From assembly GCF_963921235.1 (NCBI RefSeq), contig NC_086108.1:78184001-78248000 (forward strand): DNA of 64,000 nt, read 5' to 3'. The notes beneath the pieces are model-generated. The model did no database searches. It worked only from the letters and a program-made list of their open reading frames with translations, and had not been told where the DNA came from. Numbering within the stretch: the stretch's first letter is position 1; each line of letters opens with the position of its first letter. This document shows positions 5,399 through 36,930 of the stretch, in pieces. The translations under genes and the position numbers were made by a program. The stretch is from Mobula hypostoma. Lineage: Eukaryota.

Positions 5399-5935
5399 AA
5401 CAACAGGAATTCTGCAGATGCTGGAAATTCAAGCAACACACATAAAAGTTGCTGGTGAACGCAGCAGGCCAGGCAGCATCTGTAGGAAGAGGTGCAGTCG
5501 ACGTTTCAGGCCGAGACCCTTCGTCAGGACTATCTGAAGGAAGAGTGAGTAAGGGATTTGAAAGGGGGAGGGGGAGATCAAAAATGATAGGAGAAGACAG
5601 GAGGGGGAGGGATGGAGCTAAGAGCTGGACAGGTGATAGGCAAAAGGGGATACGAGAGGATCATGGGACAGGAGGTCCGGGAAGAAAGACAAGGAGGTGG
5701 GGGGGGGGGGGCCAGAGGATGGGCAAGAGGTATATTCAGAGGGAGAAAAAGGAGAGTGAGAGAAAGAATGTGTGCATAAAAATAAGTAACAGATGGGGTA
5801 CGAGGGGGAGGTGGGGCCTTAGCGGAAGTTAGAGAAGTCGATGTTCATGCCATCAGGTTGGAGGCTACCCAGACGGAATATAAGGTGTTGTTCCTCCAAC
5901 CTGAGTGTGGCTTCATCTTTACAGTAGAGGAGGCC
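5399..5935 (-). mobile_element. Penelope-like element 3' end (C-terminus of GIY-YIG domain, 3' UTR, hammerhead)
   Basis: Nearly identical to 31247-31790. Encodes ..EATLRLEEQHLIFRLGSLQPDGMNIDFSNFR* on the minus strand. Confidence 0.9.
5496..5531 (-). ncRNA. Minimal type I hammerhead ribozyme (intact core)
   Basis: Minus strand reads AGTC-CTGACGA-A-GGGT-CTCG-GCCT-GAAA-C-GTC-GACT. Confidence 0.8.
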
Positions 5936-10714: not shown

Positions 10715-11906
10715 AGACCATAAGACCGTAAGACAAAGCAGCAGAAGTCGGCCATTCGGCCCATCGAGCCTACTCGGCCATTTTATCATGAGCTGATCCA
10801 TTCTCCCATTTAGTCCCACTCCCCTGCCTTCTCACCATAACCTTTGATGCTCTAGCTACTCTGATACCTATCGATCTCTGCCTTAAATACACCCAATGAC
10901 TTGGCTTCCACTGCTGCCTGTGGCAAAAAATTCCATAGATTCACCACCCTCTGACTAAAAAATTTTCTTTGCATTTCTGTTCTGAATGGGTGCGCTTCAA
11001 TCCTTAAGTCATGCCCTCTTGTACTAGATTCCCCCATCATGGGAAACAACTTTGCCACATCCACTCTGTCTGTGCCTTTCAACATTCGAAATGTTTCTGA
11101 GGTCTCCCCTCATTCTTCTAAACTCCAAGGAATAGAGTCCAAGAGCAGACAAACGTTCCTCATATGTTAACCCTCTCATTTCCGGAATCATTCTAGTGAA
11201 TCTTCTCTGTACCCTCTCCAAAGTCAGCACATTCTTTCTTAAATAAGGAGACCAAAACTGCCCACAGTACTCCAAGTGAGGTCTCACCAGCGCCTTATAG
11301 AGCCTCAAGGTCACACCCCTGCTCCTATACTCTATTTCTCTAGAAATGAATGCCAACATTGCAATCGCCACCTTCACCACCGACTCAACCTGGAGGTTAA
11401 CCTTAAGGGTATCCTGTACGAGGACTCCCAAGTCCCGTTGCATCTCAGAACTTTGAATTCTTTCCCCATTTAAATAAGTCTGCCCGTTTATTTCTTCTGC
11501 CAAAGTGCATAACCATACACTTTCCAACATTGTATTTCACTTACCACTTTGCCCATTCTTCCAATCTATCCAAGTCTCTCTGCAGACTCTCCATTTCCTC
11601 AGCACTACCGGCCCCTCCACCTATCTTTATATCATCAGCAAACTTAGCCACAAAGCCATCCAAATCATTGATGTATAATGTAAAAAGAAGCGGCCCCAAC
11701 ACGGACCCCTGTGGAACACCACTGGTAACCTGCAGCCAACCAGAATAGGATCCCTTTATTCCCACTCTGTTTCCTGCCAATCAGCCAACGCTCTATCCAC
11801 GTGTGTAACTTTTCCGTAATTCCATGGGCTCTTATCTTGTTAAGTAGCCTCGTGTGGCACCTTGTCAAAGACCTTCTGAAAATCCAAATATACAACATCC
11901 ACTGCA

Positions 11907-12113
11907 AACAACAGGAATTCTGCAGATGCTGGAAATTCAAGCAACACACATCAAAGTTGCTGGTGAACACAGCAGGCCAGGCAGCATCTGTAGGAAGAGA
12001 TGCAGTCGACGTTTCAGGCCGAGACCCTTCGTCCTGAAACGTCAACTGCACCTCTTCCTACAGATGCTGCCCGGCCTGCTGTGTTCACCAGCAACTTTGA
12101 TGTGTGTTGCTTG
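11907..12113. mobile_element. Fold-back mini Penelope-like insertion (two inverted 3' ends) inside CR1 RT
   Basis: Perfect 13-bp TSD aacatccactgca at 11894-11906 and 12114-12126. Minus arm 11907-~12033, plus arm ~12033-12113. Confidence 0.9.
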
Positions 12114-13985
12114 AACATCCACTGCATCTCCCTCGTCTAGCCTACTTGTAATTCCCTCAAAAAATTGTAATAGGTTTGCCAGGCAGGATTTTCCTTTAAG
12201 GAATCCATGCTGAGTTCTGCATATCTTGTCATATGCCTCCAGGTACTCTGTAACCTCATCCTTGACAATCGACTCCACAACTTCCCAACCACCGACGTCA
12301 AGCTCGCAGGTCTATAATTTCCTTTTTGCTTCCTTGCCCCCTTAAATAGCAGTGACATCTGCAATCTTCCAGTCCTCCGGAACCATGCCAGAATCTATCG
12401 ACTTTTGAAAGATCATCGCTAATGCCTCCGCAATCTCCACAGCTACTTCCTTCAGAACACGAGGGTGCATTCCATCTGGTCCAGGAGATTTATCTACCCT
12501 TAGACTATTCAGCTTCCTGAGTACTTTCTATGTCGTGATTGTGATTGCACACACTTCTCTTCCCTGCCACCCTTGAGTGTCCGGTATACTGCTGATGTCT
12601 TCCTCAGTGAAGACTGATGCAAAATACTTGTTCAGTTCCTCTCCCATCTCCTTATCTCCCATTACAATTTCTCCAGCATCATTTTCTATTGGTCCTCTAT
12701 CTACTCTCACCTGTCTTTTACTCTTTATATACTTGAAAAAGTTTTTAGTGTCCTCTTTGATATTATTTGCTAGCTTCCTTTCATAGTTAATCTTTTCCCT
12801 CTTAATGACCTTCTTAGTTTCCTTTTGTAAGCTTTTAAAAACTTCCCAATCCTCTGTCTTCCCACTAATTTTTGCTTCCTTGTATGCTCTCTCCTTTGCT
12901 TTAATTTTGGCTTTGACTTCTCTTGTTAACCACGGTTGCATCCTTTTTCCATTTGAAAATTTCTTCTTTTTTGGAATATACCTGTCTTGCTCCTTCCTCA
13001 CTTCTCACATAAATTCCAGCCACTGCTGCTGTGCCATCTTTCCTGCCAGTGTCCCTTTCCAGTCAACTCTGGCCAGTTCCTCTCTCATGCCGCTGTAATT
13101 TCCTTTACTCCACTGAAATACCGACACATCAGATTTCTGCTTCTCTTTTTCAAATTTCTCTGTGAACTCAATCATGTTATGATCACTGCCTCCTAAGGGT
13201 TCCTTCACCTCAATCTCTCTAATCACCTCCGGTTCATTACACAATACCCAATCCAGTACAGCTGACCCCCTAGTGGGCTCAACAACAAGCTGTTCTAAAA
13301 AGCCATCTTGCAGACATTCTACAAATTCTCTCGAGATCCAGTGCCGACCTGATTTTCCCAATCCACTCGCATGTTAAAATCCCCCACAATTATCATAACA
13401 CTGCCCTTCTGACAAGCCTTTTCTATTTCCAGTTGTAATTTGTAGTCCACATCACTGTAGCTGTTTGGAGGCCTATAAATAACTGCCATCAGGGTCCTTT
13501 TACCCCTGCGATTTCGTAGCTCAACCCATAAAGATTCTGCACCTTCCAATCCTATGTCACCTCTTTCTAATGATTTAATATCACTTCTTGCCAATAAAGC
13601 CATGCCACCCCCTCTGCCTACCTTCCTATCTTTCCGATACACTGTGTATCCTTGGACGTTCAGCTCCCAGAGACATGCATCCTTTAGCCACGTCTCAGTG
13701 ATGTCCGCAATATCATACCTGCCAATCTGTAGCTGTATGACAAGATCATCCACCTTATTCCTTATGCTGCGTACATTTAAGTATAATACCTTAAGACCAG
13801 TATTTGGTACTTTTCGCTTTGATTTCACTGCAACTTTATTGCACTGCAACTCATCCCAATGGCTACAAATTTGCTTCATCACCTGCCTGTCTTTCCTGAC
13901 ATCTTTACTGCTCACTATCTTAGATTTATTTCTGTTTTCCCCTTCTTCTGCTCTATCATTCCATTTCCCATCCCCCTGCCAAATT

Positions 13986-14857
13986 AGTTTAAACCCTCCT
14001 TAACGGCTCTATTAAACCTTCCCACCAGGATATTGGTCCCCTTCGGGTTCAGGTGTAACCTGTCCATTTTGAACAGGTCATAATTCCCCCAGAAGAGATC
14101 CCAATGATCCAAGAATCTGAAGCCCTGCCCCCTGCACCAGTCTCTCAGCCACGCATTCATCTGCCTGATCCTACCATTCTTGCCCTCACTAGCACGTGGC
14201 ACAGGTGCAATCCCAAGATTACTACCCTGGAGGTCCTGCTTCTCAGCTTCCTTCCTAACTCCCAGAAATCTCTCTTCAGGACCTCCTCCTTTGTCCTATC
14301 TATGTCATTGGTACCAACATGTACCAAGACAACTGGCTGCTCACCCTCTCCCTTCAGAATATTCTGGACCCGATCCAAGACATCCCGTACCCTGGCATCT
14401 GGGAGGTAACACACCATGTGGGTATCTCTATCAGGCTCACAGAATCTCCTGTCTGTTCCCCTGACTATGGAATCCCCTACGACTACCGCATTCCTCTTCT
14501 CCCTCCTTCCCTCCTGCACAACAGCGCCAGGCTCAGTGCCAGAGACCCGGTCACTGTGGGCGTCCCCTGTCAGGTCATCCCCCTCAACAGCATCCAGAAC
14601 AAGATATTTGTTGCTGAGGAGAACAGCCACAGGTGTGCTCTCCACTATCAGGGCATTTCCCTTCCCTCTGTTGACAGTGACCCAGTTTTCTGACCCCTGT
14701 AGCCTAGGGATAACTACCTCCCTGTAGCTCCTGTCAATCAACTCTTCACTTTCCCTGATAAGCAGTAGGTCATCAAGCTGCAGCTCCAGATCCCTAACAC
14801 GGTCTTTGAGGAGCTGCATCTCGGCGCACCTGGTGCAGATGTGGCCATCAGGGAGGC
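13986..14857 (-). pseudogene. CR1 ORF1: partial zinc finger, coiled coil and SGNH/GDSL esterase
   Basis: HICTRC, then MQLLKDRVRDLELQLDDL, AVVVGDSIVR, VLVHVGTNDI, and after a frameshift FKMDRLHLNPKG. Confidence 0.85.
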
Positions 14858-16020
14858 TGTTGAAATACTTTGAGGAGATTACAAGAAGGCTAGAGAAAGG
14901 GGATTGCAGTGGATGTTGTATATTTGGACTTCCAGAAGGCCTTTAACAAGATACTACACATGAGGCTGCTTACCAAGTTAAGGACCCATGGTATTACAGG
15001 AAAGTTACTGGCATGGTCGGTGTTAGGCTCACTTTTTATGCTGTATATTAATGATTTAGATGATGGAATAGATAGCTTTGTTGCAAAATTTGCAGATGAT
15101 ATGAAGATTGGTGGAGGAGCAGGTGGTGTTGAGGAAACAAGTAGGATGCAGAAGGACTTAGACAGATTAGGAGCATGGGCAAGGAAGTGGCAAATGAAAT
15201 ACAATGTAGTAAAATGCATGGTCAGCACTTTGGTAGTAGAAATAAATGTGCAGACCGTTTTCTAAATGGGGAAAAGATCAAAAAATCTGAGATGCAAAGG
15301 GATTTGGGAATCCTTGTGCAGAACACCCTAAAGGTTAACTTGCAGGTTGTGTCAATGGTGAGGAAGGCAAATGCAATGTTAGCATTTATTTCAGGAGGTA
15401 TGTTATTCAAGTGCAGGGATATGATGCTGAGGTTTTATAAAGCACTGGTGAGGCCTCACCATGAGTATTGTGAACAGTTTTGAGCTCCTCATCTCGGAGA
15501 AGATGTGCTGGTATTGGAGAGGGTTCAGAAGAGATTCACAAGGATGATTCCAGGAATGAAAGGGTTATCATAAGAGGAATGTTTAATGGCTCTGGGTCTG
15601 TACTTGCTGGAATTTAGAAGGATGAGGGGGCGTCTCATTGAAACCATTTTGAATGTTGAAAAGCCTAGACAAAGTTGATTTGGAAAGGTTGGTTCCCATG
15701 GTGGGTGAGTCTAGGACAAGAGGGCACAGCCTTAGGGTAGAGGGGCGTTCATTTAAAACAGAGATGCAAGAAGTTTCTTTAGCCAGAGGATGGTGAGTTT
15801 GTGGAATTTGTTAACCACATACAGCTGTGGAGACTAGGTCATTTGATGTATTTAAAGCAGAGATTGATACGTTCTTGATTAGACACTGCATCAGAGGTCA
15901 CAGGGAGAAGGCCATGGATGGGGAGCTGAGGGGAAAAAAGGATCAACCATGATTGAATGGTGGAGAAGAACTTGATGGGCCAAATAGCCTAATTGTGCTC
16001 CTATGTCTTATGGTCTCATA
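14858..16020 (+). mobile_element. Older CR1, 3' half (RT and tail)
   Basis: DVVYLDFQKAFNK, FADDMKIGG, LVRPHHEYC. Tail cctatgtcttatggtctc at ~16000-16018. Confidence 0.87.
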
Positions 16021-16054
16021 TAGATACGATAACATTTTGAGAGGCAGAGCAACA

Positions 16055-16245
16055 GACTTAGTAGGTCAGACAGCATCTATGGAGAGGAATATACAGTCAA
16101 CATTTCGGGCCAAGATCCTTCATCAGGACTGGAAAGGAAAGGGGAAATCCTGTCCTGATTAAGGACCTCAACCAAAATACTGACTATTTGTCCCTTTCCA
16201 CAGATGCTGCCTAATCATTGAGTTCCTCCAGCATCTTGTGTGTGT
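16055..16245. mobile_element. Old Penelope-like 3'-end module in inverted pair, with decayed hammerhead
   Basis: Minus strand 16095-16130 reads AGTC-CTGATGA-A-GGATCTTGGCCC-GAAA-TGTT-GACT. A plus-strand module cagatgctgcc..gagttcctccagcat follows at ~16200-16245. Confidence 0.65.
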
Positions 16246-17674
16246 TTCTTTTAAGAGGCATTTAGACAGACATATGAACAGACAGGGAATGGGAAGATAC
16301 AGACTCTGTGCAGACAGATGGGTTTAGTTTGGCGTGGCATTATGATTGACAAAGATACCATGGGCCGAAGGTGTTTTCCTATCTTCTAATATTCTGTGAT
16401 CCAGACCATTATGAAAATTTTACTTGTCTCAGCACCTACACAATTCATATGAAAGGGTGTCTTCTGGTTTTGTACCTAATGGGCCAACTCTAATTTTAAG
16501 ATTGTGGCTTTTTCTTGCACCAGAGGAACTGTTGAATTCTTGAATTGTTTCAAACCTCCATGTAGCATCACCCTTTGTTTATGTTACATTAAAACAGCGA
16601 GTTTCTCATGGAAATATTTCCATAAGACATGGAAGCAAAGGTGGTGGTGGGATAAAATGCTTTTAGTGCAGGTAAAATGCAGATGAGGGACTATTGAGGG
16701 TATGAAATATTGGGGTCAAGCAAAGACACTGAAATTTGGAACCATAAAGAAAAACACAAAGGTATATTAAGTAGGAGAGTAACATATTTAGTTTTTAACT
16801 TTCTAACAAAATAGAAAAATAATTCATTTGGGTCGTTGGCGGATAAATCTATAAGAACAGGAGCTTTTCTTGCATATTTGTATTCTGGAATTAGCTTTAT
16901 TTTTCAGTGTCTGCCTCCACATTGTCCTTGGGAGGATACAGCAACTATTCTTGCACATTCTCCTCCCGCCCCTTCCCTGAAGTCACTGTCAAAATAATGT
17001 CAGAAATTTTAAGGAAGGCTTTATTGGCTGGAATGATTTGTGTCCCAATTTTACAGCTCTCTTTCTGAGAAAATGACCTTTTCCACACAATTTCTCCCCA
17101 ACAGCCTCGCAGATAAATTGACTGCATTGACACCTACAGGGAGCTGCTTATTTAAGCACAGACATTTATTACTCTGCCAAGAAATGTTACTGTCTTCACT
17201 GCTCAGCCACTCAGTCAAGAAATGGAAAACTCTAGTTTGCCATGAAGTTACTATATAATGTATCTGTATATAAACTAAGATAAATTCCTTGGAATTTTCT
17301 GAATAGTAGAAATACTATGATTTTGGCAAGAACAGTTTTGTCAGACTGCTAGTTTTGGTGCCATTATGAGCTGGAAGGATTGTTCCAGGTTGATTGTGCT
17401 GTTTTTTTGCACCACATGAAGCTGGCAGCCTCCAATTGTTAAATCTGTTCCCAGGAGTTCAGTGCGAGCTATACAGCTGTGTCAATAATATAAGTTGAGT
17501 GTTGGCCAATTCACAGCAAGTCTGTGATGAAATAGGTTTCTGTCTTTTCTGCTGGCGCAAGAGTGAGATGTACATAGGGATTTTGACCGAAATTATGTTG
17601 AACTCCTAAGGAAGGATAAGTGGTAGGTTTAGACTGGTAGACTCTCTTGTGAATTTTTTTAATGATTCTCTGAA

Positions 17675-18105
17675 CAAAGACATAGGAGAATAATTAGTCC
17701 GTCGGATCTCTCTTGCTTTATTATCCCACTCAACCCCATTCTACTGCCTTCTCCCCATAGCCTTTGACACCCTTACTAATCAAGAACCTATCAACTTCTG
17801 CTTTAAATATGCCCAATGACTAGACCCATGGCAATGAATTCCACAGATTCACCATATTCTGGCTAAAGAAATTCTTCCTCATTTCCATTCTAAAGGGATG
17901 TCCTTGTATTCTAAAGCTGTGTCCTCTGCTCCGACACTTACCCAATATAGGAAACATCCATGTCCACTCTAAGCCTTTCAGTATTTGACAGGTTTCAATG
18001 AAATCTCTCTTTTCTCTCTCCCCCCCCCCCACCCCCATTCATTTAAAATCCAGAGAGTACAGGCTCAGAGCCATCAAATGCTCCTCATGCATTAACCCTT
18101 TCATC
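17675..18105 (-). mobile_element. CR1 3' fragment
   Basis: RSRGHSFRIQGHPFRMEMRKNFFSQNMVNLWNSLP, followed by CR1 3' UTR. Confidence 0.8.
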
Positions 18106-19527
18106 CCCAGGAACTGAGGGTCTGAACTGCCATTCCAGAATGGAAAATACTAGTTTGCTTGTATTTCTGGAATACTGAAGCAGCAAGATATTCTTTTGAA
18201 ATAAACTCCATATGCTTGAGCTCCAAATTTCTGGACTGCAGGCCAACTGCCTGACTACCAATACTTTGACCCTGTTGCACTGCTGAGTGAAGCCATAATG
18301 GCTCTCCCACTCTGAGAAGCTTTCAGCAGTAGTTGCATTAACAAGTAGAAGGTTTAAAAGATTAATAGCACTGATTGGATTGAAAGAATGTTAGCATTCC
18401 TTCTTGAGCAGTCTAATTTGTCAATGTCAGCAGAAGAAAAAAAACAAATATTGAAACACCACCACTAAGAATCTGGCATCCAAAATGCATACTTTACAGA
18501 GCATAGCTTTTAAAGGAGAGGTTTGGAGGTACATCTGTGTCCCTGCAGGAATTTTCATTTCAAGGAGATATGATAGCCCCAAAAAAACACACAATTGAGC
18601 CTGTCACTCCAGCTGCCATTTTATACTGGCAAGCACTCTTTGGAGCACTAAATTAAAAGTTGCATGGCAATTATATACAAAAGAACCTTCTGCAAATTGC
18701 TCCATCTTCCTGAAGGAATTTGCAGATTGGTTTATTTGTTTATATATCCACATCACAATTACATCAATCATATCTAATAGCTTACCATGTAACACTTCTG
18801 TTGGAGACAACCCATTGCATTTCTCACTTCCACGCATTGCTAGGCACATTTCTATGAAGGCAATTATTTTCTTGATAAACAAATGCTTTCTCCTGGAGAT
18901 TAATGTGCACTATACTGTAGTCATAATACTTCCTCCTTTATGTATCAGGTTTCTTTCCCCTGTTATCTAGTCTACAACTGTTAATCTTTGCTGTGAAGCC
19001 CCGTCCTAGAGCAATTTATGCTGGAAGTCATGATTAGAGTTTAATCAAGATATTTATGACTAAGTAAAATTAAAAAGGAAAGTCATCCACTGTTGAAAAA
19101 GATTTATAACAAATCAAATAGCAGCTGGGGGAGGGAAAAGACAAATTGCACCTTTAAGAGTGTGTGTATCCTTGAGAACTGGACTCAGCTGTGTCTATTT
19201 CCCAGGAAGAAAATAGATGAAAACAGCAGCATTTTTAAGAAAGTGCATCTCACAAAATCCTATGAAAAATGACCAGCCTCAAATGAGAGGGCATCAGTCT
19301 TCAGATGTATCTGCATTCTTCCCGAAGCCAGTTGCTGGCACCTCCCCACCATTATTCTTAAACTTGAACCAAAGAAGACCTTAAATGTGTTGAGAAGAAT
19401 CATAATCAGGTAAATTGAATGGTTTTAAATGATTATAGCCACATAAGACATTCAGGCAAGTAGTTAGTCCATGACCAGCTTCATCTAGGCTGGTTGCACA
19501 CAGCAACCACACAAATAAGGATCATCA

Positions 19528-23839: not shown

Positions 23840-26797
23840 TCAATATGGTGAAAAAAAAGATAGCATGCAGTCAGACTGTCAGGAAGAACAGGCAGATGAT
23901 GGAACAAAACTGCAGGCAGCAGAGTGAGTATCAGTGCACTAGGGATGCAGATCAAAGAGTAGTAAATACTCAATGCACGGAGTATAAGGAATAAGGTGGA
24001 TGATCTTGTGGCACGATTACAGATTGTTGGGTATGATGTGTTGGCCATCACTTTATTGTGGCTGAAGGATGGTTATAGTTGGGAGCTGAATGTTCAAAGT
24101 TGCCCATTGTATGAGGAGGTGGTATGGCTCTGTTGGTAAAGAATGACATCAAATCGTTGGAAAGATGTAGCATAGGATTGGAAGATCTTGAGTCCATGTG
24201 GGTTGAGTTAAGAAACTGCAAGGGTAAAAGGACCCTGATGGCAGTTATATACAGGCCTCCCAACAGCAGATGAGATATGGGTCACAGATTACAACGGTAA
24301 GTAGAAAAAGTGTGTCAAAAGGGCAATGTTACGAGATTTCAAATGCAGGTCGATTGAAAAATCGGGTTGATAATGGATCTCAAGAGAGTGAACTAGTTGA
24401 TTGCCTCGGAGACGCCTTTTAGAGCAGTTTGTTGTTGTGCCTATTAGGTGATCGGCTATACTGGATTGGGTGTTATGTAATGAACTGCAGGCGATTAGGG
24501 ATCATAAGGAAAATAGCCCTTAGGAGGCAGGGATCACAATATGATTGAGTTCAACTTGAAATTTGATAGGGAGAAAGTAGCAGTAATTCAGTGGAGTAAA
24601 GGAAATTACAGTGGTATGAGAGAGGAGTTGGCCAAAGTAAATTGGAAAGAGAAGCTGGCAGGGATGTCAGCAGAGCAGCAATGGTGTGAGTTTCTGGGGA
24701 AAATGAGGAAGGTGCAGGATAGATCTATTCCAAAAACAAAAATATACTCAAATGGCAAACTAGTACACCCGTGGCTGGAAAGGGAAGTCAAAGCTAATGT
24801 AAAAGCAGAAGAGGGGGAATACAACAAAGCAAAAATTAGCAGGAAGATAGAGGATTGGAAGGCTTTTAAAAACCTACAGAAATGAACTAAAAGGTCACCA
24901 GGAGGGAAAAGATGAAACATGAAAGCAAGGTAGCAACCAATATCAAAGTGGATAGTAAAAGCTTTTTCAAGTATGAAAAAAAAATAAAATAAAAAATAAA
25001 AAGAGAGATGAAAGTGGATATAGGACCACTAGAAAATAACCCTGGAGAAATAATAACAGGGGCCAAGGAGAAGGCAGATGAACTAAATGAGTATTTTGCA
25101 TCAGTCTTCACTGTGAAAGATAATGGCCGTGTGCCTGATGTTGAAGGGTGTGAGGGAGGAGAAGTGAGTGTATTAACTATTACAAGGGAGAAGGTGCTCA
25201 AAAAGCTAAAAGATCTGAGGGTACGTGAGTCACCCAGACTAGATGAGCAGCACCGTAGGGTTGTGAAAGAGGTAACAGTAGAGATTGTAGAGGCATTAGT
25301 AATGAAATTTCAAAAATCGCTGCACTCTGGCATGGTGCAAGGCAATAGAAAAATTGCAAGTGTCACTCCACTCTTTAAGAAAGAAGGAAGGCAGCAGAAA
25401 GGAAATTATAGACCAGTTGGCCTGACCTCAGTGGTTGGGAAGATGTTGGAGGCAGTTGTTAAGGATGAGTTTATGGAATACTTGGTGACACAGGACAAGA
25501 TAGGTGAAAGTCAGCTTGGTTTCCTTAAGGGAAAATCTTGCCTGATAAACCTGTTGGAATTATTTGAGGAGATTACATGTAGGATAGATAAAGGGGTTGC
25601 AGTAGAAATTGTATATTTGGACTTTCAGAAGGCCTTTGACAAGATGCCACACATGAGGCTGCTTACCAAGTTAAGAGCCCATGGTATTACAGGAAAGTTA
25701 CTGACATAGTTAAAGCATTAGCTGATTGGTTGGAGGCAGCGAGTGGAAATAAAAGGATCCTTTTCTGGTTGGCTGCCAGTGACTAGTGGTGTTCCGCACC
25801 AGTCTGTTTTGGGACTGCTTTTTTTATGCTGTATAACAATGATTTTGATGATGAAATAGATTACTTTGTTGCCAAGTTTGCAGATGATATGAAGATTAAT
25901 GGAGAGGCATGTAGTGTTGAGTGCAGAAGGTAGGCTGCAGAAGGACTCAGATTAGGAGAATGGGCAACAGGGTGACAAATGAAATACAATGTTGGAAAAT
26001 GCATGATCAGACACTTTAGTAGTAGAAATAAATCTGTAGACTATTTTCTAAACAGGGAGAAAATCCAAAACTCTGAGATGCAAAGGGACTTGGAAGTCCT
26101 TGTGCAGAACACCCTAAAGGTTACCTTGCAAGTTGTGTTGGTACTGAGGAAAGCAAATGCAATGTTAGCATTCATTTCAAGACATCTAGAGTACAAATGC
26201 AGAGATGTGATGCTGAGGCTTTATAAGGCACTGGTGAGGCTTCACCTTGAGTGTTGCAAACAGATTTGGGCTCCTCATCTAAGAAAACATGTGCTGGCAT
26301 TGGAGTGGGTTCAGAGGAAGTTCACAAAGATGATCCCAGGAATGAAAGGGTTATCATACAAGAAACGTTTGATGGCTCTGGGTCTGTAGTTGCTGGAACC
26401 TAGAAAAATGAGGAGGATCTCATTGAAACATTTCAAATGTTGAAAGGCCTAGACAGAGTTGTTGTGGAAAGGATGTTTCCCATGGTGGGGGAGTCTCGGA
26501 CAAAAGGGCACAGCCTTAGGAAAGAGGGGCATCCATTTAAAATAGAGATGTGGAGAAATTTCTTTAACCAGAGGGTTGTGAATTTGTGGAATTTGTTAGC
26601 ACAGGCAGCTGTGTCATTGGATGTATTTAAGGCAGAGACTGAAAGGTTCTTGATTGGAGTTGGCATCAAAGGTTACAAGGAGAAGGCTGGGCAGTAAGGG
26701 TGAGGAGGGGAACAAAGGCTTAGCCATGTCTAAATGGCAGAGAAGACTCGATGGGCCAAATGGACTAATTCTATTCCTATGTCTTATGGTCTTATGG
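23840..26797 (+). mobile_element. CR1 ORF2 (APE-RT) pseudogene with 3' tail
   Basis: APE remnants (NARSIRNKVDDL, VIYRPP), RT (GNYRPVGLTSVVGK, YLDFQKAFDKMPH, FADD), tail cctatgtcttatggtcttatggtc. Confidence 0.92.
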
Positions 26798-27289
26798 TCA
26801 ATATTGATTCCTCTTAAAAATGGCCGGACCCTAGGTCCGCAAATCTCTGCGACTCTGCTGGGGAAGTCAAAGGTCCGATATCTGCAAATCCACCTGTCCG
26901 CTGGAGGCTGAAAGGACGGGTTCAGGGGAGAGAAAGTGTGTGTGTAAGGCAGTGAAAGCCAATTCATTAAATGTATTCAAGAAGGTATTAGATTAATTTC
27001 TCATTGTTAAAGGGACCAAAGGATTTAGGGAGAAGAAATGAACAAGGTATTGAGTTGGATGTTCAGCTTTGATGGTGTTGAATTTTGGAGGAACCCTGAA
27101 GGGATGAATGACATTTTCTGTCTTGCTATCTTAGTTTTGATGTTTATGTTCAAGATATTATCTAGGGTTATTACTTCATAATTCATAACTTTTAAACACC
27201 TTAGTGGAATATGCTGTCTGCCTTCTCTTAAAACAAATCAGCCTAAGGCCAACTCGGCTAAATAAAAGCTAGAAGTTCTCATAAGGCCG

Positions 27290-30200
27290 ATCCTGTCCAT
27301 CCTGTCAGCTTGTTCAAGTCTGGCCATTCTCCTCTGACCTCTCTCATTAACAGGGTGTTGATCCTGACAGAATTGCCACTCAGTGGGTTTGTTTTGTGTT
27401 TATTGTACCATTCTCTGTAAACTCCAGAGATAGTTGTGCATGAAAACCTCAGGAGAGAGTATTTTCTGAGATATTCAAGCTACCCATCTGGAATCAATAG
27501 TCATTCCACAGTCAAAGTCACAGATCACTGCATCGTAGCTGAAATGAGGCCATAGTTTAACATTAGAGGATGCACTTTGTATTGAAAGGACAGGCAGGAA
27601 GGCATAGGCAGTGGCGTGGCTCTGTTGGTAAGAGATGAAATTACATCTTTAGAAAGAGATGACGTGTTGAATCTTTGTGGGTGGAATTAAAAAACTGCAA
27701 GGGTAAAAAAAATTATGGGAATCATATATAGGCCTCCAAATAGTAGCCAAGATGTGGGGTTGAGATTGCAAAGGGAGCTGGAAAAGGCATCTAATAAGGA
27801 TAATGCCACAATTGTAATGAGAGACTGCAATATACAAGGGGATTGAGAAAATCCTGTTGATGTCTGATTGCAAGCGAGGGAATTTGTTGAATACCTATGA
27901 GATGGCTATTTAGAGCAGCTTGTGCTTGAGCCTACTAGGGGAAAGGCTACCTTAGAATGGATGTTATGAAATAACATGTGTTATTACACAACCCAAATCT
28001 TATTAGGGAGCTTAACGTAAAGGAACCCATAGGAGACAGTGATCATAATATGATTGAATTCATACTGCAATTTGTGATAGAGAAGCATAAGTGATATATA
28101 TCAATATCTCAATGGAATAAAGGGAAGTTACAGAGGCATGAGAGAGGAGCTTGCCCAGGTAGATTGGAGGAGGATACTGACAGCAGAGCAGAGATGGCAG
28201 AAGTTTTTCGGAATAGTTCACGAGGCACAGGATAGATCTCAAATGGCAGGGGTAGGCAACCATAGCTGAAAAGGGAAGTTAATAACTGCATAAAAGCCGT
28301 GGAAGGTGCATATGATGTAGCAAAACTGAGTGGGAAGTTCGATGATTGGGAGGCTTTTAAAATCCAACAAAGGGCAACTAAAAAAGCTTTAAGAAGAGAA
28401 AAGATGAAATGTGAGGGCAAACTAGCTAATAATATAAAGCAGGATACTAAAAGTGTGTTTCAGTTCCATAAAGAGTAAAAGGGAGGTGAGAGTTGATATT
28501 GGACCGCTGGAAAATGATGCTGGTGAGGTAGTAATGGGGGACAAAGAAATGGCAGATGAACTTAATGAGTACTTTGCATCTGTCTTCACTGTGGAAGACA
28601 CTAGCAGTCCTAGAATGTCAGGGAGCAGGAGTGGATGCCATTGCTATCACAAAGGAAAAAGTGCTACGCAAACTCTAGGGTCTTAAGTCACCTGGATCAG
28701 ATGGACTACATCCCAGAGTCCTGAGAGAGGTTGCTGAAGAGATAACATGCATTGATCATGATCTTTCAAGGATCACTTGATTCTGGCATAGTCCTGGAGG
28801 ACTGGAAGATTGCAAATGTCACTCCACTCTTTAAGAAGGGAGGAAGGCAAAAGAAAGAAAATTATAGGCTAGTTGCCTAACTTCAGTGATTGGGAAAGTG
28901 TTGGAATCTATTATTAAGGATGAGATTTTGGGGTACTTGGAGACTAAGGATAAAATAAGTCAAAGTCAGCTTGCTTTCTGTAAAGTGAAACCTTGCCTGA
29001 CAAATTTGGTAAGAGTTATTTGAGGAAGTAACAGGCAGAGTAGACAAAGGAGAGGCAGTGGATGTCATTTGCTTGGACTTTCAGAAGGCATTTGATAGGG
29101 TGCCACACATGAAGCTGCTTAACAAGATAAAATCCTATGGCATTACAGGAAAGATACTGGCATGGATGAAGAAATGGCTGACAGGCAGGAGGCGTCAAGT
29201 GGGAATAAACGGGCCTTTTCTGGTTGGCTGCCATTTTGACTAGTGGCGTTCCTCAGGGGTCCATATTGGGACCACTACTTTTCACATGGTTTGTCAATGA
29301 CTTGGATAATGGAATTCATGGCTTTGTGGCAGAGTTTGCTGATGATACAAAGATAGGTGGAGGGGTAGGAAGTGCTGAGGAAGCAAAATGATTGCAGCAG
29401 GACTTAGACAAATTGGAAGAATGGGTAAAAAAGTGGCAGATGGAATACAGTGTTGGGAAATGTATGATGATGCATTTTGGTAAAAGGAACAACAGTGCGG
29501 ACTATTATCTAATTCAGACATCAGAGGTGCAGAGGGATTTGGGATTCCCAGAAGGTTAATTTACAAGTTCAGTTTGTGGTAAAGATGGCAAGTGCAATGT
29601 TGGCACTTATTTCAAGGGGAATGGAATACAAAAGCAAGGAGATAATGCTGACCCTTTATAAGACCCTAGTCAGGCCACACTTGGAGTATTGTCAACAGTT
29701 TTGGGCCCCATATCTCAGAAAGCATGTGTTGTCATTGGAGAGAGTCCAGAGGATGATTCAGGAATGAAGGGGTTAACATATAAGGAGCGTTTTGGCAGCT
29801 TTGTGCTTGTACTCACTGAAATTTAGAAGAAAGTGGGTGCGATCTCATTGAAATCTACTGAATGTTGAAAGAACTGGATAGAGTGGATGTGGAGAAGAAA
29901 TTTCCTGTGGTGTGGGTATCCAGAACTAGAGAGCACAGCTTCAAAATTGAGGGGGTGACCTTTTAGAACAGAGGTAAGGAGGAATTTTTTTTTTAGCCAG
30001 AGAGTAGCGAATCTGTGGAATGCTCTGCCACGGACCGCGGTGGAGGCCAAGTGTGTGTGTGTGTATATAAAAAGCGGAAGTTGTTTGTTGCCCCAACCAG
30101 TCAGGAAACTAAGTATATGGCAAGAAGGCGGGTGTATTGGGTTGAGTGGGATCCGGGATCAGCCATGATGGAATGGCGGAGCAGATTCAATGGTCTGAAT

Positions 30201-30371
30201 GACCTAATTCTCCTCCTATGTCTTATCACATTTCTTCTCGCATTCTGATGTTTGAATTGAACCTCTTGACCATGCTTTTATGTATTGAGTTGCTGCCATA
30301 TGATTGTCTAATTTGGTATTTGCATTAACAAACGGATGTACAGGTGTACCTAATAAAGTGTTCACTGAGTG
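27290..30371. mobile_element. Tc1-like non-autonomous remnant (27290-27528 and 30225-30371) interrupted by CR1
   Basis: Terminus ..caggtgtacctaataaagtgttcactgagtg followed by TA (30372-30373) resembles Tc1-type TIRs. atcac is duplicated on both sides of the CR1 (27524-27528, 30225-30229). Confidence 0.6.
27529..30224 (+). mobile_element. CR1 ORF2 pseudogene with 3' tail
   Basis: IYRPPNS, DSDHNMIEF, ADELNEYFASVFT, DVICLDFQKAFDRVPH, LVRPHLEYC. Tail ctcctatgtctta. Confidence 0.9.
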
Positions 30372-31241
30372 TATACACTTCCTTTTCAGTGCTCTTAGAA
30401 TACTAATCTGGCTACACTACAGTATAGTCAATACAAGTATGTATGATTGTAACAAGTAACAACAGAGCTGTAAATGAGTGAGACCTGAAATCGAAAGGAG
30501 AAGGCTGGAAATGCCCAGGAGATCGGGCAGTGTAGGTGGAGAGAGAAAAGCTGTCAATATTGCAAATTGGTAATCTTGCATTAGAATTGGTCAGTTCTGA
30601 TTCAAATTGTAAAAGTTTTTAAATGCCAGGCTACTCAGGAATAAATTGATTTAAGTAAAATGGAGAGAGTGAGAGTGTAGTTATGAGAATGTGACATAGA
30701 TTCTCTGATCATTCATGCATTTTGCAGTCTACGAGACTGTTGTGTGCAAGTGGGGTATCCTTTTTGCTTACAAAATAACAGATGATCCAGGTGCACATAT
30801 GCAGCAGCCTTTGCATGGGAAATGAGGCTTGGGAAATCTCCCATAGGGTAAATTAAAAATAAAAGGAACAGCTGTCCCCCTGTCTTCTACATCTCATATC
30901 TGCTGGCTGCATATGGCACGGGCTAGATTCCAATTTAAACTGGGATGTAGGCTGTGTGACTAAGTTACTAGTTGTGGTCAATCCGTACCACATGTAGGCA
31001 GCTCACATGGGAAGTTATAGGCGGCCTTCACCTTAGGTGTGGAGAGAGCTGTGCTGGCCTCAGTTCCACAGATGGAGTAGCCCCGCTCTCTGCCATGCAC
31101 ATGCAGCAACTACATACGGAAAGCATCCTGTTAGATTACTACTTCAAACAATTGCTAGTTGAAGTGCACAGAATCTGTTGTGAGCATCTCTTGGAACTAC
31201 AGCATAGGGAAAGAGGGAAACATAGCTTTACCAGAAGGATA

Positions 31242-33097
31242 ACGCAAACAACAGGAATTCTGCAGATGCTGGAAATTCAAGCAACATACATCAAAGTTGC
31301 TGGTGAACGCAGCAGGCCAGGCAGCATCTATAGGAAGAGGCGCAGTCGACGTTTCAGGCCGAGACCCTTCGTCTGGACTAACTGAAGGAAGAGTGAGTAA
31401 GGGATTTGAAAGTTGGAGGGGGAGGGGGAGATGCAAAATGATAGGAGAAGACAGGAGGGGGAGGGATAGAGCCAAGAGCTGGACAGGTGATAGGCAAAAG
31501 GGGATACGAGAGGATCATGGGACAGGAGGTCCGGGAAGAAAGACAAGGGGGGGGGTGACCCAGAGGATGGGCAAGGGGTATAGTCAGAGGGACAGAGGGA
31601 GAAAAAGGAGAGTGAGAGAAAGAATGTGTGCATAAAAATGAGTAACAGATGGGGTACGAAGGGGAGGTGGGGCCTTAGCGGAAGTTAGAGAAGTCGATGT
31701 TCATACCATCAGGTTGGAGGCTACCCAAACGGAATATAAGGTGTTGTTCCTCCAACCTGAGTGTGGCTTCATCTCCACAGTAGAGGAGGCCGTGGACAGA
31801 CATGTCAGAATGGGAATGGGATGTGGAATTAAAATATATGGCCACTGGGAGATCCTGCTTTCTCTGGCGGATAGAGCGTAGATGTTCAGCAAAGCGGTCT
31901 CCCAGTCTGCGTCAGGTCTCACCAATATATAGAAGGCCACATCGGGAGCACCGGATGCAGTATATCACCCCAGTCGACTCACAGGTGAAGTGATGCCTCA
32001 CCTGGAAGGACTGTTTGGGGCCCTGAATGGTGGTAAGGGAGGAAGTGTAAGGGCATGTGTAGCATTTGTTCCGCTTACACGGATAAGTGCCAGGAGGGAG
32101 ATCAGTGGGGAGGGATGGGGGGGGACGAATGGACAAGGGAGTTGTGTAGGGAGCGATCCCTGCGGAATGCAGAGGGGGGAGGGAAAGATGTGCTTAGTGG
32201 TGGGATCCTGTTGGAGGTGGCGGAAGTTACGGAGAATAATATGTTGGACCCGGAGGCTGGTGGGGTGGTAGGTGAGGACCAAGGGAACCCTATTCCTAGT
32301 GGGGTGGTGGGAGGATGGAGTGAGAGCAGATGTACGTGAAATGGGGGAGATACGTTTAAGAGCAGAGTTGATAGTGGAGGAAGGGAAGCCCCTTTCTTTA
32401 AAAAAGGAAGACATCTCCCTCGTCCTAGAATGAAAAGCCTCATCCTGAGAGCAGATGCGGCGGAGACGGAGGAATTGAGAGAAGGGGATGGCGTTTTTGC
32501 AAGAGACAGGGTGAGAAGAGGAATAGTCCAGATAGCTGTGAGAGTCAGTAGGCTTATAGTAGACATCAGTGGATAAGCTGTCTCCAGAGACAGAGACAGA
32601 AAGATCTAGAAAGGGGAGGGAGGTGTCGGAAATGGACCAGGTAAACTTGAGGGCAGGGTGAAAGTTGGAGGCAAAGTTAATAAAGTCAACGAGTTCTGCA
32701 TGCGTGCAGGAAGCAGCGCCAATGCAGTCGTCGATGTAGCGAAGGAAAAGTGGGGGACAGATACCAGAATAGGCACGGAACATAGATTGTTCCACAAACC
32801 CAACAAAAAGGCAGGCATAGCTCGGACCCATACGGGTGCCCATAGCTACACCTTTAGTTTGGAGGAAATGGGAGGAGCCAAAGGAGAAATTATTAAGAGT
32901 AAGGACTAATTCCGCTAGACGGAGCAGAGTGGTGGTAGAGAGGAACTGATTAGGTCTGGAATCCAAAAAGAAGCGTAGAGCTTTGAGACCTTCCTGATGG
33001 GGGATGGAAGTATATAAGGACTGGACATCCATGGTGAAAATAAAGCGGTGGGGGCCAGGGAACTTAAAATCATCGAAAAGTTTAAGAGCGTGAGAAG
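31242..33097 (-). mobile_element. Penelope-like element (Neptune-type), left inverted arm, 5'-truncated within RT
   Basis: Reverse complement of 33574-35384 plus ~45 extra terminal nt. TMDVQSLYTSIP, QTKGVAMG, LRYIDD, CKRNKCYTC, GVIY..YIGET. Confidence 0.95.
31344..31379 (-). ncRNA. Minimal hammerhead ribozyme, core-mutated (CAGACGA)
   Basis: Same as 35292-35327 except U4>A (position 31374). Confidence 0.65.
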
Positions 33098-34996
33098 CAT
33101 CAACCGTCTCGACTTCACCGCACCTTGTCCCCATTCCAACCTCACTCCTTCGGAACGCTCTGCTCTCCACTCCCTCCGCACTAATCCTAACCTTATTATT
33201 AAACCCGCCGATAAGGGGGGTGCTGTTGTAGTCTGGCGTACTGACCTCTACCTTGCCAAGGCAGAGCGACAACTCACGGATACCTCCTCTTATTTACCCC
33301 TCGATCGTGACCCCACTAAGGAGCACCAGGCCATTGTCTCCCACACCATCACCGACTTTATCCGCTCAGGGGATCTCCCATCCACTGCTACCAACCTTAT
33401 ACTTCCCACACCCCGCACTTCCCGTTTCTACCTCCTACCCAAGATCCACAAACCTGCCTGTCCTGGCCGACCTATTGTCTCAGCTTGCTCCTGCCCCACC
33501 GAACTCATTTCTGCATACCTCGACACTGTTTTATCACCCCTTGTTCAATCTCTTCCGACCTATGTTCGTGACACTTCTCACGCTCTTAAACTTTTCGATG
33601 ATTTTAAGTTCCCTGGCCCCCACCGCTTTATTTTCACCATGGATGTCCAGTCCTTATATACTTCCATCCCCCATCAGGAAGGTCTCAAAGCTCTACGCTT
33701 CTTTTTGGATTCCAGACCTAATCAGTTCCCCTCTACCACCACTCTGCTCCGTCTAGCGGAATTAGTTCTTACTCTTAATAATTTCTCCTTTGGCTCCTCC
33801 CATTTCCTCCAAACTAAAGGTGTAGCTATGGGCACCCGTATGAGTCCTAGCTATGCCTGCCTTTTTGTTGGGTTTGTGGAACAATCTATGTTCCGTGCCT
33901 ATTCTGGTATCTGTCCCCCACTTTTCCTTCGCTACATCGACGACTGCATTGGCGCTGCTTCCTGCACGCATGCAGAACTCGTTGACTTTATTAACTTTGC
34001 CTCCAACTTTCACCCTGCCCTCAAGTTTACCTGGTCCATTTCCGACACCTCCCTCCCCTTTCTAGATCTTTCTGTCTCTGTCTCTGGAGACAGCTTATCC
34101 ACTGATGTCTACTATAAGCCTACTGACTCTCACAGCTATCTGGACTATTCCTCTTCTCACCCTGTCTCTTGCAAAAACGCCATCCCCTTCTCTCAATTCC
34201 TCCGTCTCCGCCGCATCTGCTCTCAGGATGAGGCTTTTCATTCTAGGACGAGGGAGATGTCTTCCTTTTTTAAAGAAAGGGGCTTCCCTTCCTCCACTAT
34301 CAACTCTGCTCTTAAACGTATCTCCCCCATTTCACGTACATCTGCTCTCACTCCATCCTCCCACCACCCCACTAGGAATAGGGTTCCCTTGGTCCTCACC
34401 TACCACCCCACCAGCCTCCGGGTCCAACATATTATTCTCCGTAACTTCCGCCACCTCCAACAGGATCCCACCACTAAGCACATCTTTCCCTCCCCCCTCT
34501 GCATTCCGCAGGGATCGCTCCCTACACAACTCCCTTGTCCATTCGTCCCCCCCCATCCCTCCCCACTGATCTCCCTCCTGGCACTTATCCGTGTAAGCGG
34601 AACAAATGCTACACATGCCCTTACACTTCCTCCCTTACCACCATTCAGGGCCCCAAACAGTCCTTCCAGGTGAGGCATCACTTCACCTGTGAGTCGACTG
34701 GGGTGATATACTGCGTCTGGTGCTCCCGATGCGGCCTTTTATATATTGGTGAGACCCGATGCAGACTGGGAGACCGCTTTGCTGAACATCTACGCTCTGT
34801 CCGCCAGAGAAAGCAGGATCTCTCAGTGGTCACATATTTTAATTCCACATCCCATTCCCATTCTGACATGTCTGTCCACGGCCTCCTCTACTGTGGAGAT
34901 GAAGCCACACTCAGGTTGGAGGAACAACACCTTATATTCCGTCTGGGTAGCCTCCAACCTGATGGTATGAACATCGACTTCTCTAACTTCCGCTAA
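33098..34996 (+). pseudogene. PLE reverse transcriptase / GIY-YIG endonuclease polyprotein (no native start, two frameshifts)
   Basis: IIKPADKGGAVVVW, FYLLPKIHK, GRPIVS, TMDVQSLYTSIP, QTKGVAMG, LRYIDD, PFLDL, YYKPTD. After shifts at ~34495 and ~34550: CKRNKCYTC and GVIYCVWCSRCGLLYIGETRCRLGDRFAEH..GMN. Stop at 34994-34996. Confidence 0.93.
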
Positions 34997-35291
34997 GGCC
35001 CCACCTCCCCTTCGTACCCCATCTGTTACTCATTTTTATGCACATATTCTTTCTCTCACTCTCCTTTTTCTCCCTCTGTCCCTCTGAATATACCTCTTGC
35101 CCATCCTCTGGGTCACCCCCCCCCTTGTCTTTCTTCCTGGACCTCCTGTCCCATGATCCTCTCGTATCCCCTTTTGCCTATCACCTGTCCAGCTCTCGGC
35201 TCTATCCCTCCCCCTCCTGTCTTCTCCTATCATTTTGGATCTCCCCCTCCCCCTCCAACTTTCAAATCCCTTACTCACTCTTCCTTCAGTT

Positions 35292-35327
35292 AGTCCTGAC
35301 GAAGGGTCTCGGCCTGAAACGTCGACT
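35292..35327 (+). ncRNA. Minimal type I hammerhead ribozyme (intact core; predicted cleavage after GUC at 35323)
   Basis: Stem I AGTC(35292-95)/GACT(35324-27), CTGACGA (35296-302), extra A, stem II GGGT-CTCG-GCCT, GAAA (35316-19), palindromic ACGT in place of helix III. Confidence 0.82.
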
Positions 35328-35717
35328 GCACCTCTTTCTATAGATGCTGCCTGGCCTGCTGCGTTCACCAGCAACTTTGATGTAGTTTACCAGAATGATA
35401 CTCAGTTTAAATGCTTTGTGGAGTGATTACGCAAACTGGTGTTGTATTTACTTGATAGAGAAAAAGATGAGGGCATTTGACCAAAGTTTGCAAGGCATTT
35501 CAGAGAGCCTTACACTGTATATAAAGAGGATCTATTTCCAGTGATTGGGGAGTTCAGAACTAAAGTGAGCCAGCCAAGAATGTCATTAATTAAACTTTCC
35601 TATGCATAAATGATAACAAACATTTGGAGTGCTAGTAATTAACGTGAAGTAAGTTGTTAAGTTTAAATGTAAGATCTATAGTGTTTCCTTAGCCAAAACT
35701 CAACATACTTTAGCTGG

Positions 35718-36087
35718 CAAAACACATAAAAGTTGCTGGTGAACGCAGCAGGCCAGGCAGCATCAAAAGGAAGAGGTACCCCCCCCCCCTTTCTTTCTCC
35801 TTAGGCCTCCTGTCCCATGATCCTCTCGTATCTCTTTTGCCAATCAACTGTCTGGCTCTTGGCTCCATCCCTCCCCCTCCTGTCTTCTCCTATCATTTTG
35901 GATCTCCCCCTCCCACTTTCAAATCTCTTACTAGCAATTCTTTCAGTTAGTCCTGACAAAGGGTCTCGGCCTGAAACGTCAACTGTACCTCTTTCGATAG
36001 ATGTTGCCTGGCCTGCTGCATTCACCAGCAACTTTTATGTGTGTTGCTTGAAATTCCAGCATCTGCAGATTTCCTCGTGGTTGCGTG
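35718..36087. mobile_element. Fold-back Penelope-like insertion of a related subfamily
   Basis: Perfect 13-bp TSD atactttagctgg at 35705-35717 and 36088-36100. Short minus arm 35718-~35779, plus arm ~35780-36087 with a mutated hammerhead (CTGACAA) at 35949-35984. Confidence 0.88.
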
Positions 36088-36149
36088 ATACTTTAGCTGG
36101 ATTATGGGGCCAAGGTACCTGGAATAGGTTATTGATCGGCTTATCCAAA

Positions 36150-36930
36150 TAAGTATGAAGATTTGCATTTTGGGAAGTGAAAGCAGGGCAGGATTTACAC
36201 AATCAATGGTAGAGACCTGGGGATTGTTGTAGAACAGAAGGACCTTGAAATGCAACTACATAGTTCCCTGAAAGAAGCATCTCAGGAAGATTAGCCTGGA
36301 TAAGGCGGCATTTGGCACGCTGTGCTTTGTTAGTTAGGGCACTGAGTAGAGCAATTGGGACATCATGTCACAGTTTTCCAAGATGCTAGTGAAACTGTAC
36401 CTGGGGTATTGGGTACAGATTTGGTTACCTGATCATAGGAATGATGTCACTATGCTGGAAGGAACACAAACAAGACTAATGAGAATGTTACCAGGGCTCG
36501 GGGGCCTGAGCTAAAGAGAGAGGTTAGGTAGGCTGAACTTTATTCATTGGAACACAGGAGAGTGAGGGGTGACCTTATAGCAGTGTATAAAATTACAAAG
36601 GATATAGGGTAGATGCACACAGCCTTCTTCCCAGGGAAGGGGAATAAAAAAAAACTAGAGAGTATAGGTTTAAGGTGAGCAGTGAAAGATTTAAAAGAGA
36701 CCTAAGGGGACAAATTCTTCACACAGGGTGGCGCATATATGGAACGAGCTGCCAGGAAAAGTGGTTGAGGCAGGCGCAATACCAATATTTGAAAGACGTG
36801 GATAGGAAAGATTTAGAAGGATGTGGGCCAAATTCAGGCAAGTAGGACTAGCTTACATGGTTGACATGGATGAGTAGGATGGAGAGGCCTGATTCCCTGC
36901 TGTATAGCTCTATGACTCCATGACTCTATC
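36150..36930 (+). mobile_element. Decayed CR1 3' fragment
   Basis: Degenerate LHFG, RDLG, RGDLIAVYKI and FFTQ motifs. Tail ctctatgactccatgactcta. Confidence 0.78.

What the first reader, a model, noticed from the sequence alone, without database searches (positions are those of the whole stretch)
31227..35400. 4.1-kb Penelope-like insertion forming a giant inverted repeat inside a single TSD
Seen: minus arm 31242-33097 and plus arm 33574-35384 are reverse complements with only scattered substitutions. The ~476-bp spacer (33098-33573) is extra 5' RT sequence of the plus copy. Both 3' ends face outward. The flanks are tttaccagaaggata (31227-41) and tttaccagaatgata (35386-400), a 15-bp direct repeat with one mismatch. 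The left end is complete (acgcaaac..) and the right end lacks ~45 nt. Established: PLEs can carry inverted pseudo-LTRs, and L1 twin priming gives inversions without duplicating the 3' end. Inference: one event in which both target-strand 3'-OHs primed long cDNAs from near the RNA 3' end (two RNAs, or one reused), which were then joined head to head.
Basis: partly seen in the sequence, partly recalled or inferred. Interest (0 to 1): 0.78.

Follow-up and report, generated by a model that had tools for sequence, protein, structure and literature searches.

The report
Large head-to-head Penelope-like retroelement insertion
A dead jumping gene sits here as two back-to-back partial copies inside one duplicated landing site, a layout already described for this class and common in this genome, and the sister copies suggest that it was likely built by copying RNA into both cut DNA strands at once.

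Summary
Real, but a known layout. Arms 31287-33097(-) and 33574-35384(+) match over 1811 bp (24 substitutions, no gaps). They sit in one 15-bp target duplication, with a 45-nt tail on the minus arm only. The element is an endonuclease-bearing Penelope-like retrotransposon, Neptune-type by its linker motif. The inverted truncated copy, one-sided tail and TSD are in print (PMC3846280, PMC8557442), and this scan noted them before on other DNA (60 notes). In this genome 54 of 138 sampled sister loci have the same form, 52 of 54 with exactly one tail; three have longer arms. Best mechanism: both target strands primed RNA-templated cDNAs at two start sites, which were then end-joined; in vitro support comes from a Poseidon element (PMC11167929). 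Points I did not find in print: the tailed arm is the shorter one in 35 of 45 simple units, which argues against fold-back copying; target sites have a symmetric T-rich flank; and an 866-bp block is identical between this unit's arms, likely later gene conversion. One RNA versus two is unresolved. A relative's contigs fit an empty site.

The parts
31227..31241 (+). Left copy of the target-site duplication (15 bp)
   Evidence: chance 2 of 20,000
31242..31286 (-). 45-nt PLE 'tail', on this arm only; in tandem copies it is the sequence that follows the pLTR end
31287..33097 (-). Minus arm: 5'-truncated copy (unit positions 1702-3514), the shorter and tailed arm; its hammerhead core has a substitution at 31374
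33097..33098 (.). Head-to-head junction, blunt: no inserted bases, no microhomology
33098..33573 (+). Spacer: extra 5' RT-coding sequence of the plus copy, with the DKG motif at 33210-33218
   Evidence: DKG named in PMC8557442
33574..35384 (+). Plus arm, paired part; the whole plus copy 33098-35384 is unit positions 1226-3514, without tail
33102..34487 (+). Truncated RT frame (YIDD at 33933-33944); frame shifts against the EN frame in a C/T tract near 34490
   Evidence: Pfam RVT_1 E 1.5e-6, 28.5 bits, just under the 29.6 cut-off
34592..34618 (+). Linker C-x4-C-x2-C motif (fits CX2-5CxxC of Neptune/Nematis)
   Evidence: translation; definition in PMC8557442
34700..34996 (+). [quoted passage not shown]
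   Evidence: Pfam GIY-YIG E 0.0015, under cut-off; atlas neighbours at 0.96-0.97 carry PF01541 in 13-56% of members
33849..34714 (+). 866-bp block identical in both arms (mirror 31957-32822), with 4 substitutions shared by the arms of which 3 were in none and 1 in one of the other copies
35290..35330 (+). Minimal type I hammerhead motif in the pLTR (CUGAnGA, short stem II, GAAAC-GUC)
   Evidence: pattern and fold; no Rfam match at E<=1; motif class described in PMC4209133
35386..35400 (+). Right copy of the target-site duplication, preceded by one extra G at 35385

Best explanation
This is one insertion of an endonuclease-bearing Penelope-like retrotransposon, two 5'-truncated copies joined head to head inside one target duplication, likely made when both cut target strands primed reverse transcription on element RNA and the two cDNAs were then end-joined. 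Shown: the anatomy, the element class and its regularity in the family. Inferred: the endonuclease cuts both strands about 14 nt apart; one 3'-OH starts at the pLTR-end site (no tail) and the other about 41-45 nt further 3' (tail); both cDNAs stop early and are joined bluntly, by 1-6 nt microhomology or with filler bases; fill-in gives the TSD. The templates come from the same source lineage, either one RNA or two closely related ones. Later, arm-to-arm gene conversion likely homogenised an 866-bp block. The copy is truncated and frameshifted, so it cannot encode the full protein.
For: 54 of 138 sister loci are head-to-head; 52 of 54 have exactly one tail; 52 of 54 have a TSD, 46 of these 13-15 bp. 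3' ends fall in two clusters, -4 to +14 (49 of 52 tail-less sister arms) and +39 to +54. The tailed arm reaches less far 5' in 35 of 45 simple units (P 2.5e-4), and in 22 of 28 in the second sample alone (P 0.004); a fold-back copy cannot carry a tail that its template lacks. Two loci (L040, L055) have only the tail as inverted arm, inside a 13-14-bp TSD. Target flanks show the same T-rich pattern reading outward on both sides (T at +7 in 40 of 53 left and 38 of 53 right), as expected for a symmetric two-strand cut. Of 20 junctions without filler, 14 have 2 nt or more of microhomology against 13% by chance. Arms agree at the linked subfamily marker in 31 of 32 to 35 of 36 pairs (50% expected) and share rare alleles 25 times more often than random pairs. 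In vitro, PAc cleaves and extends both strands, starts at two RNA sites that bound the tail, and is predicted to be a dimer (PMC11167929). A relative's contigs stop matching at 31241 and run on 343 and 346 nt, which would end them 27-32 nt inside the next repeat beyond the right flank, as an empty site predicts.
Against: The in vitro work is on a Poseidon element, started from end-labelled DNA, and did not show a joined two-armed product; this element is Neptune-type. The tail is on the longer arm in 10 of 45 units. Arms differ at 72 of 485 diagnostic site comparisons (14.8%, random 37%), and three quarters of 51 pairs differ at one or more, far above mutation since insertion, so a single RNA does not explain all pairs; this unit's arms differ at 3 of 12 such sites. 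No listed contig bridges the central junction 33097/33098 (tables cut). The 866-bp block could be an assembly consensus effect.
Confidence: 0.72

Rival explanations
1. Self-priming or fold-back: one cDNA, or an antisense RNA as Arkhipova et al. 2013 proposed, folds back and copies itself, giving the inverted arm before or during integration.
For: Proposed in PMC3846280 for head-to-head junctions with palindromes. 11 of 45 units have arms within 100 nt of each other against 4.3 expected (P 0.002), and arm lengths correlate (Spearman 0.39). Arms nearly always share the subfamily marker.
Against: Here and in 35 of 45 units the shorter arm carries the tail that the longer arm lacks. This junction has a 476-nt spacer, no palindrome and no microhomology. 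Arms often differ at diagnostic sites. An antisense RNA from an existing inverted unit would give recurring junctions; junction positions differ among the 45 units.
Confidence: 0.1
2. Two independent insertions in opposite orientation at or near one site, later homogenised.
For: The family is abundant (1246 and 4501 first-look candidates), has a target preference, and three loci hit the same site of another repeat. The arms differ at 3 of 12 diagnostic sites.
Against: One TSD encloses both arms and none lies at the centre; 52 of 54 sister units have one tail and 52 of 54 one TSD; rare alleles are shared outside the identical block too (34835, 34966).
Confidence: 0.04
3. Fold-back read or assembly artefact.
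For: The 866-bp identical block; the central junction was not seen in listed contigs.
Against: 24 differences between the arms, unequal 3' ends, different collinear flanks with a TSD, contigs of the same organism that cross the left junction by 23-26 nt without a mismatch, and 54 sister units with the same rules.
Confidence: 0.03
4. Re-transposition of a ready-made inverted unit: a transcript of an older head-to-head copy was reinserted as a whole.
For: It would explain alleles shared by the arms, including a shortened C/T tract. L122 and L135 share the same two arm end points.
Against: No other of 138 loci has this junction; the one-tail rule and variable break points point to assembly at each landing; L122 has 23 filler bases at its centre, and L135 was not analysed there.
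Confidence: 0.06

Closest known systems
Insertion units of EN+ Penelope-like elements: Pen2a_Av and Pen2_Av of Adineta vaga (PMC3846280); general scheme in Craig et al. 2021, Fig. 2 legend (PMC8557442)
   Same: Inverted 5'-truncated copy next to the 5' end, 3' ends outward, one-sided tail, one TSD around the whole unit; head-to-head named the most frequent arrangement.
   Different: Arms of 1.8 kb rather than about 0.2-kb pLTRs; tail 45 nt rather than 30-40; TSD about 14 bp rather than 8-10; no palindrome at the junction.
Neptune clade of PLEs (linker CX2-5CxxC plus CCHH; PMC8557442)
   Same: RT, linker C-x4-C-x2-C, C-terminal GIY-YIG with CxxC between the motifs, DKG, minimal hammerhead in the pLTR.
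   Different: No tree was built, so Nematis is not excluded. No microsatellite targeting was seen in the 53 listed sites; these show a symmetric T-rich flank.
PAc, Poseidon element of Anolis carolinensis (PMC11167929)
   Same: Two reverse-transcription start points that bound the tail; both DNA strands cut and extended.
   Different: Another clade (no linker zinc finger); the parts of the paper I read do not treat the joined two-armed product or arm lengths.
L1 twin priming (recalled, not read)
   Same: Both target strands prime cDNA; the products are joined by microhomology.
   Different: In L1 the second primer anneals far inside the RNA, so the arms are non-overlapping parts of the element; here both start within about 45 nt of each other and the 3' region is doubled.

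Membership tests
EN+ Penelope-like element | RT with PLE motifs (DKG, YIDD) | tested here: met
   RVT_1 E 1.5e-6, under the cut-off; DKG and YIDD read; DKG named
EN+ Penelope-like element | C-terminal GIY-YIG endonuclease with two cysteines between GIY and YIG (CCHH) | tested here: met
   GVIYCVWCSRCGLLYIG; Pfam GIY-YIG E 0.0015; atlas; the two histidines were read by eye, not aligned
EN+ Penelope-like element | Partial tandems forming pLTRs | tested here: met
   L061, L073, L076, L091, L106, L119 are a truncated copy followed by a full unit
EN+ Penelope-like element | Optional tail at one end; inverted 5'-truncated copy; TSD | tested here: met
EN+ Penelope-like element | Hammerhead motif in the pLTR | tested here: met
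   Core pattern in the plus arm and in 121 of 139 main copies; Rfam gave no match; cleavage not testable
Penelope/Poseidon clade | No CX2-5CxxC linker between RT and EN | tested here: not met
   CKRNKCYTC at 34592-34618 (definition)
Neptune clade | CX2-5CxxC linker plus CCHH | tested here: met
Neptune clade | RT phylogeny groups with Neptune rather than Nematis | not tested
   No named reference sequences were fetched
L1-type twin-priming inversion | Inverted segment does not duplicate the 3' end | tested here: not met
   Both arms hold the same 1811 nt of the 3' end; the definition is recalled

The most novel reading that the evidence does not exclude
A dimeric PLE enzyme cuts a symmetric site and runs two reverse transcriptases in file on one RNA: the one that starts at the inner site (no tail) leads, the one that starts at the tail end trails and must displace the first cDNA, so it cannot pass it. 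This explains the one-tail rule, the shorter tailed arm, the excess of equal-length arms and the tail-only inverted arms; the long palindromes it leaves are then homogenised by gene conversion.
Probability: 0.35. Interest if true: 0.55.

Novelty: new member of a known kind. Interest (0 to 1): 0.3.

Why it matters
How Penelope-like elements build their inverted repeats is called undefined in PMC8557442. This locus alone adds little, but the family statistics give rules that a mechanism must meet and that the existing in vitro system can test: one tail per unit, tailed arm usually shorter, a symmetric cut about 14 nt apart, arms from the same source lineage. The process also seeds kilobase near-perfect palindromes, which by general knowledge (recalled) can form double-stranded RNA, extrude cruciforms and undergo arm-to-arm conversion; none of these was tested here.

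Tried and rejected
Rfam scan of 31000-36200 at E<=1: no match, although the minimal hammerhead pattern is there. PDB sequence search with the RT frame: no match at E<=0.01. Poseidon label: my first working label, dropped after the linker motif check. 'Giant and exceptional': rejected; L117, L089 and L071 have longer shared arms. The shared short C/T tract near 34490 is weak evidence of common origin: the tract varies (37-42 nt over the measured segment in 15 other copies). Conversion as the general source of shared rare alleles: inconclusive; 18 of 45 lie in the longest identical run against 14.5 expected, though 34 of 45 are in pairs with arms of 1 kb or more. Sites 3176, 3333 and 3481 differ between arms as often as between random copies and may be recurrent hot spots, so they say little about templates. 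Contigs within the element come from many copies and cannot test the 866-bp block. Paper searches found no statement on which arm carries the tail or on this target pattern; subscription papers such as Evgen'ev and Arkhipova 2005 and Arkhipova 2006, supplements and figures were not seen and may hold it. Whether the insertion lies in a host gene was not tested.
Full report
OBSERVATION. The inverted repeat is real. The arms 31287-33097 (minus) and 33574-35384 (plus) align over 1811 bp with 24 substitutions and no gap. The minus arm runs 45 nt further at its 3' end (31242-31286); the plus copy runs 476 nt further at its 5' end (33098-33573). The unit is bounded by a 15-bp direct repeat with one mismatch (31227-31241, 35386-35400) and one extra G at 35385; 2 of 20,000 random junction pairs in the window gave such a repeat. 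The central junction is blunt. The substitutions are not scattered: 4 lie in the inner 275 bp, none in 33849-34714, 20 in the outer 670 bp; 0 of 20,000 permutations give an identical run of 866.

WHAT THE ELEMENT IS. The plus copy encodes a truncated RT (Pfam RVT_1, E 1.5e-6, just under the cut-off) with DKG and YIDD, and in another frame a C-x4-C-x2-C linker and a GIY-YIG domain with CxxC between the two motifs (Pfam E 0.0015, under the cut-off; atlas neighbours carry PF01541 in 13-56% of members). By the motif rules in PMC8557442 (passages) the linker puts it with Neptune or Nematis, not Penelope/Poseidon; no tree was built. The 3' end holds a minimal hammerhead pattern (35290-35330), intact in 121 of 139 main copies and changed at one core base in the minus arm; PMC4209133 describes such motifs in PLE pLTRs (passages). 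Six fetched loci are partial tandems that give the full unit, about 3.5 kb, and show that the 45-nt extension is the sequence following the pLTR end, the known tail. The arms are 65% and 52% of a unit, so the copy is dead.

THE FAMILY IN THIS GENOME. Four searches of G000 each scored 40 candidates (first-look candidates 1246, 908, 4501, 245). Of the 163 rows I fetched 138 loci (38, 38, 34, 28); dropped were the window itself, partner arms and loci already held, and one row not fetched. All have one arm of about 380 nt or more, so stubs are not sampled. 54 of 138 are head-to-head with outward 3' ends (20 of 38, 7 of 38, 11 of 34, 16 of 28). Two-armed units have up to twice the chance of being drawn, so the true share is about 24-39%. 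A few complex loci (L013, L040, L055, L074, L088) were not counted as inverted by the script. 52 of 54 have exactly one tail (L135 runs on into the next unit, L043 has none). 52 of 54 have a TSD, 46 of them 13-15 bp. Three units have longer shared arms than the window (L117, L089, L071). Of 84 other loci 37 are tailed and 49 show a TSD.

ARM RULES. Leaving out 8 complex units, the tailed arm reaches less far 5' in 35 of 45 units, the window included (P 2.5e-4); in the second sample alone 22 of 28 (P 0.004). Permuting arms among units, a tailed arm longer by over 100 nt is seen 6 times against 14.7, and arms within 100 nt of each other 11 times against 4.3. L040 and L055 have only the tail as inverted arm. 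Of 45 junctions 25 have filler bases (some inflated by nearby substitutions) and 20 do not; 14 of these 20 have 2 nt or more of microhomology against 13% by chance. Reading outward from the TSD, both flanks are T-rich at +3 and +6 to +9 (T at +7 in 78 of 106 flanks; 40 of 53 left, 38 of 53 right), a symmetric preference.

ONE TEMPLATE OR TWO. Arms of one unit are closer than random copies: 14.8% against 37% discordance at 16 non-CpG polymorphic sites, 1-2 discordant pairs of 32-36 at the linked three-base subfamily marker (50% expected), and 1.22 against 0.049 shared rare alleles per kb. But only 25% of 51 pairs agree at all sites, and L010 differs at the whole marker. Some of the sites may be hot spots. 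The data fit the same source lineage, not always the same molecule; they do not separate one RNA from two RNAs made at the same time. In the window the arms share 8 non-majority substitutions, 5 seen in no other copy of the first sample, and differ at 3 of 12 diagnostic sites. Other copies carry rare variants at 0.85% in the block region, about 7 per arm; the two arms carry the same 4, as expected if one arm overwrote the other. Conversion is inferred; an assembly effect is not excluded.

READS. Contigs of the window's organism cross the left junction by 23-26 nt without a difference (X1, X3; one sample, possibly the assembled one). Contigs of a relative (X5, X8; one sample) match the left flank, stop at 31241 exactly and run on for 343 and 346 nt. 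If the site is empty they would end at 35743 and 35746, about 30 nt inside the next family fragment at 35714-35717, where such contigs break. This fits an empty site, but the run-on letters were not seen. The central and right junctions have no direct read support here.

MECHANISM. Shown: anatomy, element class, family rules. From print: PAc cuts and extends both strands, starts at two RNA sites that bound the tail and is predicted to be a dimer (PMC11167929, parts 1-2 of 4 read). Inferred: a staggered cut of about 14 nt, two RNA-templated cDNAs from the two start sites, end-joining and fill-in. Fold-back (PMC3846280, Discussion read) cannot put a tail on the shorter arm. Two enzymes in file on one RNA would explain the length bias but not all allele differences; a tandem RNA with a short upstream unit as template of the tailed arm would explain both and is untested.

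KNOWN OR NEW. PMC3846280 (passages and Discussion) and PMC8557442 (passages) describe the inverted truncated copy, one-sided tail and TSD. The scan has 60 notes with these words in at least 20 genomes, and several in this genome; they are leads, not support. The shorter-tailed-arm bias and the symmetric target flank were not in the passages read or in the listings of six paper searches, nor in the six notes listed; older subscription papers, figures and supplements were not seen. Verdict: a large, clean example of a known layout, with modest added value from the family statistics. Interest 0.3.

Noticed in passing
window 11894-12126: Stub-sized head-to-head unit of the same family, tail on the left arm, perfect 13-bp TSD.
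   Followed up: partly
window 35705-36100: Older (85-89% identical) head-to-head unit 300 bp right of the finding: 54-nt tail-less minus arm, 268-nt tailed plus arm, perfect 13-bp TSD.
   Followed up: partly
window 5399-5935: Single tailed 5'-truncated copy on the minus strand, no TSD found.
   Followed up: partly
L067, L084, L137 (G000:C2, C22, C58): Three different insertions share flanks (94-99%) and overlapping TSD letters, one in the opposite orientation: the same site of another repeat was hit three times.
   Followed up: partly
L089 (G000:C52:34274891-34282890): 4.4-kb near-perfect palindrome: 2.1-kb arms, about 90-nt spacer, only 9 differences and 9 shared rare alleles, a stronger case of arm homogenisation than the window.
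   Followed up: partly
L122 and L135: Two loci on different contigs have the same arm end points (unit 3326 and 2967); L135 continues into the next unit. Possible re-copied composite.
   Followed up: no
L091 (G000:C12:13749723-13757722): Tandem copy with an internal duplication of about 210 nt (unit 717-928); L039 and L069 show the same repeated segment.
   Followed up: no
window 9882-18107 and 23857-30225: Old, 67-82% alike LINE fragments in both orientations; translations look like CR1-type RT and endonuclease (by recall, not scanned).
   Followed up: no
window 35364-35384 and 31242-31286: The pLTR end plus first tail bases fold into a short hairpin (5-bp stem, 10-nt loop) whose 3' side lies where tail-less arms end; PAc starts in a stem-loop too.
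   Followed up: no
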